From NCBI GenBank assembly GCA_951406725.2, contig OX597830.1:49290001-49354000 (forward strand): a stretch of 64,000 nucleotides of DNA. Reading direction: 5' to 3'. Numbering within the stretch: the first letter of the stretch is position 1; every line of letters begins with the position of its first letter. Source of the stretch: Octopus vulgaris. Its lineage: Eukaryota. A model generated the notes under the pieces. The model was not told the DNA's origin. It saw only the letters and a list, made by a program, of their open reading frames with translations, and searched no databases. Positions 13,240 through 60,217 of the stretch are shown here, in pieces. Position numbers and translations under genes: made by a program.

Positions 13240-14025
13240 CCCGTCTGCTTACTGCCCGTGTTCTCTAGCTGTTTATTTGTAACCTATCTCCATTTCTGGA
13301 TGCCTTCGACGACGGAGAATATTGTTTATGTATGTGAGTTTGAGAATATATACGTGTGTGCATCTGTGTGTGTGTGTGTGTGTGCATGTGTGTATGTGTG
13401 TATGTTGTTCTCTACAATTGTTTCATTTTTATCCCCATTCATCAGAAACGATCGCTGCTTATTATACAATAAACGATATGATGAATGTTCCATATTTTTT
13501 ATTCATTTTTTGTTTCCCTGGAAACGTTGTAATATATTGCATCATAATCTATGTTTAACACTCTAGTAGACTCCTTCATCCCTCACCACCGCACGAATAC
13601 ATATACACATAAATAAATACATATTCACAATAATATTCGTAAAAAAAGAAACATATTGGCATTGTCATACAGCAGAAATGAATGGAATGCTCCATCAACA
13701 CAATCATACGAAATTGGAACAATTCATATGTTGTAGATTCACAGCCAGATATATATGTATACATAACTATACATGTATATACACACACTCACCCTTACAT
13801 AGATATCATTGATCTTTCATAACTTCTTTCAAACGAAACCAACTTTTCTACGATCCTACTCTACTAGATTTTTACTCTTTTACTTGTTTCAGTCATTTGA
13901 CTGTGGCCATGCTGCAGCACCACCTTTAGTCGAACAAATCGACCCCATGACTTATTCTTTGTGAGCCAGCTACATAACCCAAGTGACAATTACTAATTAT
14001 TAACTGCGAGTAACAGAATACTTCA

Positions 14026-14088
<63 letters not shown>

Positions 14089-14089
14089 A

Positions 14090-14164
<75 letters not shown>

Positions 14165-14355
14165 ATATACACATATATATATATATATATATCGTAACAT
14201 ATAACAATCAACTGTGGCGTTCTGTACAGGACAGTGCTAGTGATGTTTATAGCCCCAGGAGGGCATCTCTTCCAGCTGGCTGACGATACACATTCTGTAT
14301 ACGATTAAGATTTGCGAGGACAGGTCAACGCTCTCATCTTTAGCCTTACGGGATA

Positions 14356-14400
14356 CACACGGACTCGAGTTTCTGGGTGGTTACCCGTCCTCAGCGTGTG
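14356..14400 (-). ncRNA. Type I hammerhead ribozyme with intact core
   Basis: Minus strand: cacacg-CUGAGGA-c gggu aacc accc a-GAAAC-ucga-GUC^-cgugug. It has a 6-bp stem I, a 4-bp stem II with a C.A closing mismatch and a palindromic stem III. Confidence 0.85.
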
Positions 14401-14405
14401 CTAAT

Positions 14406-14438
14406 CACACGCTAGTGATGGAAACTCAAGTCCGTGTG
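14406..14438 (+). ncRNA. Degenerate plus-strand hammerhead
   Basis: cacacg-CUAGUGA-ug-GAAAC-ucaa-GUC-cgugug. Stems I and III are kept, the core is altered and stem II is lost. Confidence 0.55.
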
Positions 14439-14995
14439 CATCACGTGAGGCTAGAGTTGGGAGAGATAACCTCCCTCGCAAATACTAATCCGACACAGAA
14501 CCTGTGTTGTTAGCCAGCTGGAGGAGATGTCTTCCTGGGGCTATCAACGTCAGTAGGACGCCACACTTGGTTGGCAATTATATGTTACGATTCCGTACCG
14601 CTACTGTTTATCTCTCGGTCAGAGATTTAAGATAGCTCTCTCTCTATATATATAATAGTGAGTTTCGAGGGATATTTTATCCGGACGGGTATCAGCTCTC
14701 AGTTAAGTTCCAGTTAAGAGCTAACCACAACGATCAGTATTTAACGTCTGTGACTTCAATTTCTTGTTAATCATTCCGTGAATTCTTCCGATGGGTAATT
14801 CCGCGTACGCTTCGCTGGATGTTAAAAATTGTTTGCAATATGTATTATCGTTATTAATAATAAAGGGTATGGAGCATTGTACATCCACGAAATTTATTTC
14901 ATGGTTAAAATGCAGTGCAAACACGTGTAGATCATTATAATATGCTATACATAACTATATACAACATGTGGTTATACAAGTCTCCATGCTATTTA

Positions 14996-15155
<160 letters not shown>

Positions 15156-15159
15156 AACA

Positions 15160-15515
15160 GATATTTAGCAAAATGTGGAACCTGAAGACTAAAGCAATAC
15201 CTGTTGTCATAAGTGCCCTGGGAATGATAGCCAAAGGGGATGATTGCTACCTAGCTCAGATAACAGGAAACCCCCAAAACAGCAGAAATTGAAAAGATAG
15301 TGCTCATGGGAACTACCCATATTCCACGCAACATACTTTCTATGTAAACTCAAGGTTTAAAACAAACATAATTTTCTTATGTTTTCTTAAACATTCTCAA
15401 GAACAATACTATGTACAAAACCAAATATATGGCACCCAGGGCATAACACCAACATGAACTTCCAACTTGTACGAATGCAAAGCAAAAGTCAAACATAGAA
15501 TAATAATAATAATAA
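15160..15515 (+). mobile_element. R4/Dong-type non-LTR retrotransposon 3' end
   Basis: Translates to KMWNLKTKAIPVVISALGMI...EIEKIVLMGTTHI.R.ILSM*, followed by a 3' UTR ending in (TAA)n. Duplicate at 16653-17010. Confidence 0.8.
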
Positions 15516-15535
15516 TGAGCCACACACACACACAC

Positions 15536-15605
<70 letters not shown>

Positions 15606-15606
15606 A

Positions 15607-15663
<57 letters not shown>

Positions 15664-15701
15664 TATATATATATGTATATATATAACACATATATATATA
15701 T

Positions 15702-16103
15702 ATCGTAACATATAACAATCAACTGTGGCGTTCTGTACAGGACAGTGCTAGTGATGTTTATAGCCCCAGGAGGGCATCTCTTCCAGCTGGCTGACGATAC
15801 ACATTCTGTATACGATTAAGATTTGCGAGGACAGGTCAACGCTCTCATCTTTAGCCTTACGGGATACACACGGACTCGAGTTTCTGGGTGGTTACCCGTC
15901 CTCAGCGTGTGCTAATCACACGCTAGTGATGGAAACTCAAGTCCGTGTGCATCACGTGAGGCTAGAGTTGGGAGAGATAACCTCCCCTCGCAAATACTAA
16001 TCCGACACAGAACCTGTGTTGTTAGCCAGCTGGAGGAGATGTCTTCCTGGGGCTATCAACGTCAGTAGGACGCCACACTTGGTTGGCAATTATATGTTAC
16101 GAT
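15702..16103. mobile_element. Foldback HHR element, copy 2
   Basis: Essentially identical to 14191-14591; minus-strand HHR at 15867-15911. Confidence 0.8.
15867..15911 (-). ncRNA. Type I hammerhead ribozyme (duplicate)
   Basis: Identical to 14356-14400. Confidence 0.85.
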
Positions 16104-16507
16104 TCCGTACCGCTACTGTTTATCTCTCGGTCAGAGATTTAAGATAGCTCTCTCTCTATATATATAATAGTGAGTTTCGAGGGATATTTTATCCGGACGG
16201 GTATCAGCTCTCAGTTAAGTTCCAGTTAAGGGCTAACCACAACGATCAGTATTTAACGTCTGTGACTTCAATTTCTTGTTAATCATTCCGTGAATTCTTC
16301 CGATGGGTAATTCCGCGTACGCTTCGCTGGATGTTAAAAATTGTTTGCAATATGTATTATCGTTATTAATAATAAAGGGTATGGAGCATTGTACATCCAC
16401 GAAATTTATTTCATGGTTAAAATGCAGTGGAAACACGTGTAGATCATTATAATATGCTATACATAACTATATACAACATGTGGTTATACAAGTCTCCATG
16501 CTATTTA

Positions 16508-16649
<142 letters not shown>

Positions 16650-17036
16650 AACAGATATTTAGCAAAATGTGGAACCTGAAGACTAAAGCAATACCTGTTG
16701 TCATAAGTGCCCTGGGAATGATAGCAAAAGGGGATGATTGCTACCTAGCTCAGATAACAGGAAACCCCCAAAACAGCAGAAATTGAAAAGATAGTGCTCA
16801 TGGGAACTACCCATATTCCACGCAACATACTTTCTATGTAAACTCAAGGTTTAAAACAAACATAATTTTCTTATGTTTTCTTAAACATTCTCAAGAACAA
16901 TACTATGTACAAAACCAAATATATGGCACCCAGGGCATAACACCAACATGAACTTCCAACTTGTACGAATGCAAAGCAAAAGTCAAACATAGAATAATAA
17001 TAATAATAATGAGCCACAAACACACACATATGTATG

Positions 17037-17075
<39 letters not shown>

Positions 17076-17111
17076 ATTTAGCAATGGTCATTTTGCTAGT
17101 TTAACCAATGC

Positions 17112-17195
<84 letters not shown>

Positions 17196-17198
17196 ATA

Positions 17199-18053
17199 TA
17201 CTAAAATTATATAGACGACGCACAATAATTATCAAATGGGTATTACGACGAGGTCCATTTGGAAATGGGAGATAATCTCAACATTTATGTTTTACTGACA
17301 CACACACAAGCACATATTAAGTAAGTATGTATGCATGTATGTATGTATGTATGTATGTATGTATGTATGTATGCATGTATGTATGTATGCACGTATGTAT
17401 GTATCTACATGCGTGTGCTTAGGTGTATATGTGTGTGTCTGTATACGTGTGTATATGTGTGTATATATTGTATATGGCATACAATATTAGTCCCGGGAAG
17501 AATAGTATATGTAGGTCAGTCAGTATACATCGTTATACTAGCATTAGATATATATCTATATTTCTGTATGCATACAGACAACACACACACACATTTGGAA
17601 CACACATGTTCAGTTAATCATGCATTCAAAACACGATTATGTTCTATCGTCATTTCTTTAGTTGTGTGTGTTTACGTTCCTTTCTTTTTTAAATTTTATT
17701 TCTTGAAGAGTTCTTTACAGTGTGTTTGAAACAATAAAGATTCCCGATCCATTGATGGAAATAGACAGAAAATCTTTATTGTTTCAAACAATCTCTAAAG
17801 ATATCAAAGAGAAGTATGAGGTGATAGACTAAAAAGAAAATATGTAAAAAAAACTGTCGAGTTTCCGATATATACATACATACATACATACACACACACA
17901 TATATATATATATATACATACATATATATATATATATATATATCTTTACACATATGTATATATGTATATATATAAACATATGTATGCATACACACAAATG
18001 CACCATATATAGTATATATATACCTCTATCTATTTATCATCTCTATCGCTATA

Positions 18054-32270: not shown

Positions 32271-32446
32271 CCGCGTGTATATCGTTGGCGATTTGTTTCC
32301 TCCGTCTTCCCTTCCTTGGATCTTTCTGACGAAGAGCTCCGCTCGAAACGTTAAACCCTCCTTCTTTCTTTCCTTTCCTGAGCGTCCAATAACACTATAC
32401 TTGTTCCACGTCCTCGCGTTGTTGTGTTTTCTCTTTGTGTTTGGAA

Positions 32447-59532: not shown

Positions 59533-59702
59533 ATATATATATATATATATATACAATAAAAGCAATTAAGATTCAAGTCAATTCTAATGAATTTACTTGA
59601 ATGCGGTACTTAACTTAGATGCACCAGAAAACTATATGGTGTTAACCATGCAGTAATGTGGGGTGATTATAAACGAGAAAGAAGCAACAAGAATGGATTA
59701 GT

Positions 59703-59793
59703 TTTTAGTACAATTGTTTCATACAAAGACAGGCTTTATTAAAAGTTGCAAATATTGCAGCAGATAAAAGTGTCCCGTACTCATCAGCTAAAA
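59703..59793 (-). ncRNA. Type I hammerhead with extended stem II (minus strand)
   Basis: Reverse complement of 60045-60135. Confidence 0.8.
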
Positions 59794-60044
59794 CACATAT
59801 GAGTTCTCCAAACATCTTAGTGGGTGAGGCTATACTCATGAATATTGGAGATAATTTCATTAAAAGCAGATTTAGGTTGTAAACAGACTTCCGAAGTTCT
59901 GCTATGTTCTGTGATAAGACTGTGCATCATCATTAAAGAACTTCGGAAGTCTGTTTACAACCTAAATCTGCTTTTAATGAAATTATCTCCAATACTTCAT
60001 GAGTATAGCCTCACCCACTAAGATGTTTGGAGAACTCATATGTG

Positions 60045-60135
60045 TTTTAGCTGATGAGTACGGGACACTTTTATCTGCTGCAATATTTGCAACTTTTAAT
60101 AAAACCTGTCTTTGTATGAAACAATTGTACTAAAA
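60045..60135 (+). ncRNA. Type I hammerhead with extended stem II (plus strand)
   Basis: uuuuag-CUGAUGA-[guacgggaca..uuuuau..ugcaa uau uugca..auaaaa..ugucuuuguau]-GAAAC-aauu-GUA^-cuaaaa. Confidence 0.82.
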
Positions 60136-60159
60136 ACTAATCCATTCTTGTTGCTTCTT

Positions 60160-60217
<58 letters not shown>

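What the first reader, a model, noticed from the sequence alone, without database searches (positions are those of the whole stretch)
14191..14591. Viroid/retrozyme-like ~400-nt rod with opposite-polarity hammerheads paired at its apex
Seen: the whole 401 bp folds into an imperfect rod with roughly 80% arm identity. By manual alignment about 12 transition differences give G.U pairs on the plus strand and about 7 on the minus strand. The apex encodes an intact type I HHR on the minus strand (cacacg-CUGAGGA-cgggu aacc accca-GAAAC-ucga-GUC^cgugug) and a mirror, degenerate HHR on the plus strand with the same 6-bp stem I. Established: rod-like RNAs with paired ambisense HHRs are typical of Avsunviroidae and viroid-like circular RNAs, and minimal type I HHRs with a palindromic stem III are typical of Penelope-like elements (PLEs) and animal retrozymes. 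Inference: this is either an integrated ambisense-ribozyme retrozyme-like family or an old inverted PLE terminal repeat. Its arms are far more diverged than those at 59675 yet still pair throughout.
Basis: partly seen in the sequence, partly recalled or inferred. Interest (0 to 1): 0.85.

Follow-up and report, generated by a model that had tools for sequence, protein, structure and literature searches.

The report
Decayed head-to-head retrozyme insertion, one hammerhead
This 400-base hairpin is an old, decayed head-to-head pair of truncated copies of a short repeated element that carries one predicted self-cleaving RNA motif; it was likely pasted in by Penelope-type retrotransposon enzymes and is unlikely to be a viroid-like RNA.

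Summary
The rod and the minus-strand type I hammerhead (14356-14400) are real. The second, plus-strand hammerhead is not: it is the 3' half of a truncated inverted copy joined at a 6-7-nt microhomology, without core or stem II. The locus is two 5'-truncated copies of a ~358-bp non-coding repeat, head-to-head beside (TA)n, with a 43-nt tail on one end only (the element runs to 14634). Of 49 other loci, 24 are head-to-head; all 22 adjacent junctions differ, and this junction occurs only here and in its local duplicate. Each arm has drifted 8-10% from the family with no shared change; the G.U excess is not significant. A young 353-bp sister subfamily has the same layout with arms ~99% identical, so arm divergence reflects age. 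Best reading: a dead copy of a non-LTR retrozyme family, likely mobilised by a Penelope-like element (partner not identified). Worth keeping: the family's regular geometry (arms from one template, tail on exactly one end) looks like a genomic footprint of Penelope-type two-strand priming, which I did not find reported for retrozymes.

The parts
14191..14427 (-). Left arm: 5'-truncated copy of the ~358-bp unit (unit positions 44-283 on the L005:1100-1457 ruler). Element sense is minus; its 3' end abuts (TA)n and lacks the tail.
14356..14400 (-). Type I hammerhead: 6-bp stem I, CUGAGGA core, 4-bp stem II with one extra base on each side, GAAA, 2-bp stem III with palindromic UCGA loop, GUC triplet. 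Predicted cut between 14362 and 14361. In the family a distal stem I extends it to about 14350-14408.
   Evidence: activity untested
14421..14427 (.). Inversion junction (unit 283|230) at a 6-7-nt microhomology; unique to this locus and its duplicate
   Evidence: bridged by contigs in runs X1 and X3
14421..14634 (+). Right arm: inverted 5'-truncated copy (unit 230-1), element sense plus, with a 15-nt deletion
14406..14438 (+). 14421-14438 is the 3' half of the right arm's truncated ribozyme; 14406-14420 is antisense flank of the left arm. No core, no stem II.
14592..14634 (+). 43-nt tail (unit 43-1), present on the right end only
14028..14190 (.). (TA)n/(TG)n microsatellite at the insertion site
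15702..16146 (.). Second copy of the whole insertion (hammerhead at 15867-15911, minus strand), inside a ~1.5-kb local tandem duplication (about 14028-15703 and 15545-17199)
   Evidence: real duplication versus assembly artefact not tested

Best explanation
The rod is two truncated copies of a ~358-bp hammerhead-bearing repeat lying head-to-head beside a (TA)n tract, likely made in one Penelope-type retrotransposition event and since decayed by likely neutral mutation. Shown: unit, copy layout, orientation, one-sided tail, variable junctions, target preference, independent drift of the arms, near-identical arms in young relatives. Inferred mechanism: (1) a multimeric source locus is transcribed; the hammerheads cut as dimers through the palindromic stem III and the monomer circularises (from the retrozyme literature; not tested here). 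(2) A Penelope-like RT/GIY-YIG protein supplied in trans nicks both strands of AT-rich DNA and primes one cDNA on each strand from the same RNA, at two start sites 43-45 nt apart. This puts the 3' ends outward and the tail on one end only. (3) Each cDNA stops at a random point, sometimes after going round more than one unit, and the two are joined, here at a short microhomology that cut the second ribozyme in half. (4) The arms, near-identical at birth, drifted to about 80%. This copy is probably inert: in a minus-strand transcript the complementary arm is made first and is predicted to trap the ribozyme.
For: Family: 127 matches, 2560 first-look candidates. Tandem 358-bp unit. Of 49 distinct other loci, 23 are head-to-head, 1 mixed, 14 direct only, 11 single, 0 purely tail-to-tail. 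All 22 adjacent junctions differ. The tail is on exactly one end in 12 of 13 loci with both ends classifiable. A microsatellite lies within 25 nt of 36 of 65 outer ends versus 12% background (all). The arms are 10.2% and 7.9% from the column majority (other copies median 8.05%), with 0 of 167 shared non-majority alleles. Arm identity in 17 other old inverted loci is 74.8-92.6%, median 85.9; G.U 153 versus A.C 128, p=0.15. Young and intermediate subfamilies: 16 of 25 loci head-to-head, none tail-to-tail; tail on exactly one end in 13 of 13 intact loci (two look like one duplicated insertion). Young arms differ 0.77% within loci versus 1.6% between loci, and 19 non-majority alleles are shared by both arms in 11 loci. 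PMC8557442 (passages) gives partial tandems, an inverted 5'-truncated copy and a 30-40-bp tail often on one end as PLE hallmarks, and microsatellite bias for Naiad/Chlamys PLEs. PMC11167929 (passages and part of section 3) shows a PLE protein cleaving and extending both strands, with the tail lying between two RT start sites. 781-aa RT+GIY-YIG ORFs occur in this genome and end at (TA)n with and without a tail. Forcing the hammerhead fold costs 37 kcal/mol in the rod.
Against: No autonomous partner was identified: 20 GIY-YIG loci showed no significant DNA similarity to either unit (best E 0.03 over 26 nt). The one PLE fragment near a copy (L043, 1 of 105 loci) is separated from it by about 460 nt of other sequence and microsatellite. 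No cleavage, transcript or circle data. Rfam's Hammerhead_1 model does not detect the motif. The ribozyme is not significantly more conserved than the rest of the unit between subfamilies (76% versus 68%; p=0.15 for one pair) or among old copies. The window's arm identity is in the low tail (2 of 17 other loci are lower). PMC11167929 found no difference in start site between top and bottom strand in vitro, so the strict one-tail-per-locus rule is not explained by that paper. The 30 loci were found with the rod as query, which favours inversions; in the monomer-query table I count by eye 20 of 40 places with an opposite-strand partner.
Confidence: 0.88

Rival explanations
1. An integrated copy of an ambisense, viroid-like circular RNA whose rod and paired hammerheads were kept by RNA-level selection.
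For: Stable rod on both strands; 13 versus 7 G.U-type differences favour the plus strand; one intact hammerhead.
Against: No plus-strand core; junction unique; no compensatory change; G.U excess p=0.26; 12 transversion mismatches; both arms are parts of one genomic repeat unit.
Confidence: 0.02
2. The inversion arose after insertion, by replication template switching or fold-back repair between repeat copies at the microhomology.
For: 6-7-nt microhomology at the junction and overlaps of 1-7 nt at 7 of 22 other junctions; the region also holds a local tandem duplication.
Against: Inversions are almost always 3'-ends-out, already present in ~99%-identical young loci, and carry the tail on exactly one end. 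Later rearrangement would not give this.
Confidence: 0.04
3. Origin as in the best explanation, but the hairpin has since been co-opted as a double-stranded RNA (editing substrate or small-RNA source), or was reverse-transcribed after A-to-I editing.
For: The plus strand folds better than the minus strand; A>G 6 versus T>C 2 among 32 derived changes; the junction is also present in runs with two other organism labels at about 97% identity.
Against: The derived spectrum is mixed (C>T 7, G>A 5, 12 transversions); divergence is typical of the family; no constraint is visible.
Confidence: 0.06

Closest known systems
Metazoan non-LTR retrozymes (PMC7229834; bioRxiv 10.64898/2026.07.22.740005), e.g. 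the ~350-390-bp mussel retrozymes
   Same: 353-358-bp non-coding unit, one type I hammerhead with palindromic loop 3, dispersed monomers and short tandem arrays, self-paired branched monomer (young unit z -5.9 as a circle)
   Different: About half of the loci are head-to-head with a one-sided tail; word searches of those two papers found no mention of inverted copies. Circles and cleavage were not tested here.
Penelope-like elements: inverted 5'-truncated copies, partial tandems and tail (PMC8557442, PMC11167929); non-autonomous PLEs such as MRC1 (PMC8557442 passage)
   Same: 5' truncation, partial tandems, inverted copy at the 5' end, tail on one end, AT-rich targets
   Different: No ORF; tail 43-45 nt rather than 30-40; no matching autonomous pLTR found
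Opposite-strand hammerhead pairs 100-700 bp apart in Schistosoma PLE copies (PMC4209133, passages)
   Same: Opposite-polarity hammerheads as a by-product of PLE-type copies; extra base between positions 9 and 10.1; palindromic loop 3
   Different: Here the second ribozyme is cut in half, and the unit has a full stem I rather than a minimal motif
Avsunviroidae and ambisense viroid-like circular RNAs (features recalled, not looked up)
   Same: Rod-like fold of about 400 nt with a hammerhead
   Different: Only one ribozyme; the rod is an inverted duplication of a genomic repeat; no conserved architecture or covariation across copies

Membership tests
non-LTR retrozyme | short (150-450 bp) non-coding repeat unit | tested here: met
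   358-bp and 353-bp units; no PLE-protein match in the units
non-LTR retrozyme | type I hammerhead in each unit, one polarity | tested here: met
   sense 56 of 64 young and 16 of 72 old segments, antisense 0 of 64 and 0 of 72; G-C to A-U changes in stem II and distal stem I between subfamilies
non-LTR retrozyme | tandem head-to-tail copies | tested here: met
   353-bp period arrays; old dimers and trimers. The window locus itself has no complete unit.
non-LTR retrozyme | self-cleavage and accumulation as circular RNA | not testable with these tools
   dimer fold predicted for the young ribozyme only
non-LTR retrozyme | no LTR, PBS or PPT | not tested
   not searched for specifically
Penelope-like element insertion signature | 5' truncation with fixed 3' ends; inverted 5'-truncated copy; partial tandems | tested here: met
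Penelope-like element insertion signature | short tail on one end; AT-rich or microsatellite target | tested here: met
   12 of 13 old and 13 of 13 young loci; 36 of 65 ends versus 12% background
autonomous Penelope-like element | RT plus GIY-YIG ORF | tested here: not met
   tblastn with a 781-aa PLE protein gave no hit in the window and hits in 1 of 105 loci, outside the unit
non-autonomous derivative of a given PLE family | shared pLTR or 3' end with an autonomous element | tested here: inconclusive
   none among 20 GIY-YIG loci out of 6136 first-look candidates
ambisense viroid-like circular RNA | complete ribozyme in both polarities | tested here: not met
ambisense viroid-like circular RNA | same rod across copies, with compensatory changes | tested here: not met
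ambisense viroid-like circular RNA | circular RNA of both polarities, RNA-RNA replication | not testable with these tools
   no suitable raw RNA run

The most novel reading that the evidence does not exclude
This family is a genome-wide footprint of how animal retrozymes move. A Penelope-like enzyme primes both strands of a (TA)n target on one circular RNA, at two fixed start sites 43-45 nt apart, one per strand, and rolls round the circle. This gives head-to-head arrays whose arms share the template's private variants and carry the tail on exactly one end. The ~99%-identical young subfamily may still be active and makes near-perfect hairpins of 300 bp and more.
Probability: 0.55. Interest if true: 0.55.

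Novelty: new member of a known kind. Interest (0 to 1): 0.3.

Why it matters
The locus itself is an ordinary dead repeat copy, and a caution: head-to-head Penelope-type insertions can mimic viroid-like rods with opposite-polarity hammerheads in genome scans. The family is more useful. The 2026 preprint links retrozymes to PLEs by co-occurrence and pLTR trees in vertebrates and leaves the mobilisation mechanism open. The insertion geometry seen here (one template per locus, 3' ends out, tail on one end) is an independent, mechanism-level line of evidence in an invertebrate, and the young subfamily makes it testable.

Tried and rejected
Rfam scans of the window and of 14150-14950 found only microsatellite-driven miRNA hits and no hammerhead. 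A genome search with RF00163 gave 6 hits, none similar to this family. A-to-I hyper-editing as the cause of the G.U pairs was rejected: A>G is only 6 of 32 derived changes. Partner search: 15 GIY-YIG loci and 5 longer PLE stretches showed no significant similarity; 7 other hammerhead loci with the same stem III had no PLE ORF and no similarity to the units; the PLE fragment in L043 was treated as a chance neighbour (L141 was fetched but not analysed). Expression: no RNA holder listed. In run X5 (RNA is only a guess) no listed contig bridges the junction; one 69-nt piece equals 14515-14583 and others are family fragments. This is not counted for or against expression. The covariation count (4 of 18 pairs with a change on both sides, score reached by 3 of 500 shuffles) is weak: rows were chosen by patterns that fix the core, 4 rows by the whole 45 nt, and the signal amounts to about two subfamily-level events. 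Earlier scan findings: none returned. Literature searches 'hammerhead + Penelope + octopus', 'retrozyme + cephalopod' and 'non-LTR retrozyme + inverted repeat + Penelope' found no description of this family or of inverted, tailed retrozyme insertions; most subscription papers and all bioRxiv supplements were not visible, and no repeat library (Repbase, Dfam) could be searched, so the family may already be catalogued.

Full report
Observation. The 401 nt at 14191-14591 fold into a rod on both strands. The arms match at 148 of 184 ungapped columns, with 13 G.U-type and 6 A.C-type transitions, 17 transversions and several indels in a global alignment. On family columns the figures are 135 of 167, 13, 7 and 12. 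The minus strand holds a complete type I hammerhead at 14356-14400, with the predicted cut at 14362/14361. Rfam does not detect it at E<=10. The plus-strand 'mirror' lacks the CUGANGA box and stem II and is not found by a descriptor scan. The whole locus recurs 1511 nt downstream at 99.7%. The host is a 2.8-Gb, microsatellite-rich genome. From recalled SINE sequence I guess an octopus-like cephalopod; no call tested this.

What the arms are. A genome search gave 127 matches and 2560 first-look candidates, of which 40 were scored. The loci show a ~358-bp unit in monomers and short tandems. On a natural unit used as ruler (L005:1100-1457), the window is unit 44-283 forward followed by unit 230-1 reversed. 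The element therefore runs to 14634, and the junction sits on a 6-7-nt microhomology at 14421-14427. The ribozyme lies at about unit 209-253, so the reversed arm keeps only its 3' half; that half is the 'mirror'. The matching 5' hexamer is a private change (0 of 54 other copies). One 22-mer of the ribozyme occurs 266 times exactly and was exact in 9 of 37 sampled copies, suggesting on the order of a thousand ribozyme-bearing copies, including a sister subfamily that shares the 22-mer.

Is the rod a conserved unit? No. After removing duplicates and window copies, 49 of 65 fetched loci remained: 23 head-to-head, 1 mixed, 14 direct only, 11 single, none purely tail-to-tail. All 22 adjacent junctions differ from one another and from the window's. 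The window's junction pattern occurs twice in the genome, both in the window. Part of this sample was found with the rod as query; in the monomer-query table I count by eye 20 of 40 places with an opposite-strand partner. Contigs of runs X1 and X3, with different organism labels and studies, bridge the window's junction with 9 differences in about 342 nt, so it is not an assembly artefact; these runs and X2 also show opposite-strand joints at many other positions.

Is the pairing under selection? No sign of it. The arms are 10.2% and 7.9% from the column majority of other copies (median 8.05%, IQR 6.7-9.6) and share no non-majority allele in 167 columns; the 32 derived changes are mixed. In 17 other old inverted loci the arms are 74.8-92.6% identical and G.U versus A.C is 153 versus 128 (p=0.15); the window's 13 versus 7 gives p=0.26. 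Forcing the hammerhead fold costs 8 kcal/mol locally, because a private hairpin competes with stem I, and 37 kcal/mol within the rod.

A young control. A relaxed ribozyme pattern gave 914 matches (control 0) and revealed a young 353-bp sister subfamily and intermediates, about 75% identical to the old ruler over unit 92-230. Of 25 such loci, 16 are head-to-head and none tail-to-tail; nearly all have (TA)n on at least one side; arms are mostly 99-100% identical. Within loci, inverted copies differ by 0.77% and direct copies by 0.53%, against 1.6% between loci; 19 non-majority alleles are on both arms and 39 on one arm in 11 loci. All 13 loci with intact ends have the tail on exactly one end (7 left, 6 right; L079 and L084 look like one duplicated insertion), and 3 more are truncated. 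In old loci the tally is 12 of 13, and 36 of 65 outer ends (window included) adjoin microsatellite versus 12% background. So the arms are born alike from one template and diverge with age.

The ribozyme. It occurs in the element's sense only (56 of 64 young, 16 of 72 old segments; antisense 0 in both). Between subfamilies stem II and the distal stem I show G-C to A-U changes (weak, see Tried and rejected). The young motif does not form as a monomer in the predicted fold but does as a dimer, with an 8-bp stem III, as described for metazoan type I hammerheads (PMC4209133, passages). The young unit folded as a circle is branched, 63% paired, z -5.9 over 30 shuffles (antisense -4.3). Against a strong claim: the ribozyme is not significantly more conserved than the rest of the unit, and activity is untested.

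Mechanism and comparison. PMC8557442 (passages) lists 5' truncation, partial tandems, an inverted 5'-truncated copy and a tail often on one end as PLE features. PMC11167929 (passages and part 2 of section 3) shows a PLE protein cleaving and extending both strands at AT-rich DNA, with the tail between two RT start sites, though with no strand difference in start site. PMC7229834 (section 14 and passages) describes ~350-390-bp mussel retrozymes expressed as circles and proposes RT on the circle to give tandem cDNA. The preprint 10.64898/2026.07.22.740005 (parts 1-3 of 5 and a word search; supplements not visible) argues that retrozymes are non-autonomous PLE derivatives and does not mention inversions or tails in its main text. 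PMC4209133 already notes opposite-strand hammerhead pairs 100-700 bp apart in Schistosoma. This genome has intact-looking 781-aa RT+GIY-YIG ORFs ending at (TA)n with or without a tail, but no DNA link to the unit was found. Shown are the layout and the statistics; transcription, cleavage, circularisation and the identity of the enzyme are inferred.

Verdict. A dead, head-to-head copy of a non-LTR retrozyme family with Penelope-type insertion signatures: a new member of a known kind (confidence 0.88). The ambisense viroid-like reading is rejected (0.02). Interest 0.3 overall, resting on the family-level geometry, which I did not find reported for retrozymes in the searches.

Noticed in passing
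L099:1753-2105; L081, L094, L101, L124-L128, L131, L132: Young 353-bp retrozyme subfamily, 97-100% identical copies, arrays of up to 9 units in pattern hits (C2:14086546-14089383, 352-bp period, a related subfamily); several loci have intact hammerheads on both strands (L094, 127 bp apart) and form near-perfect long hairpins. Possibly still active.
   Followed up: partly
L119:1245-3590, L122:1439-3784, L123, L120, L121: Young autonomous PLE family with a 781-aa RT+GIY-YIG frame and an overlapping upstream frame; ends at (TA)n with or without a ~35-nt tail. Its 3' end has a minimal hammerhead-like motif with U3-A8 in place of C3-G8 (L122:4666), a variant noted in PMC4209133.
   Followed up: partly
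window 14028-15703 and 15545-17199: About 1.5-kb tandem duplication at 99.7% in its unique part; it puts two same-strand hammerheads 1511 nt apart. Further near-duplicate blocks appear around 17.3-19.9 kb (ORF list). Real duplication or assembly artefact was not tested.
   Followed up: no
window 59668-60170: Separate inverted repeat, 98% complementary arms, ending at (TA)n, unrelated to this family by BLAST; has a CTGATGA box without a nearby GAAA. Possibly another PLE-type inverted insertion.
   Followed up: partly
window 32326-32360 (+) and about 13410-13445 (-): Two other short hammerhead-like motifs (core box, short stem II, GAAAC) in small elements beside microsatellites.
   Followed up: no
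L134-L139: Another group of hammerheads with the same palindromic stem III but a different stem I and a 31-nt core, unrelated to the 358-bp unit and with no PLE ORF nearby.
   Followed up: partly
window 14660-14950: A different repeat directly downstream of the tail (hit in L025; multi-copy depth); not identified.
   Followed up: no
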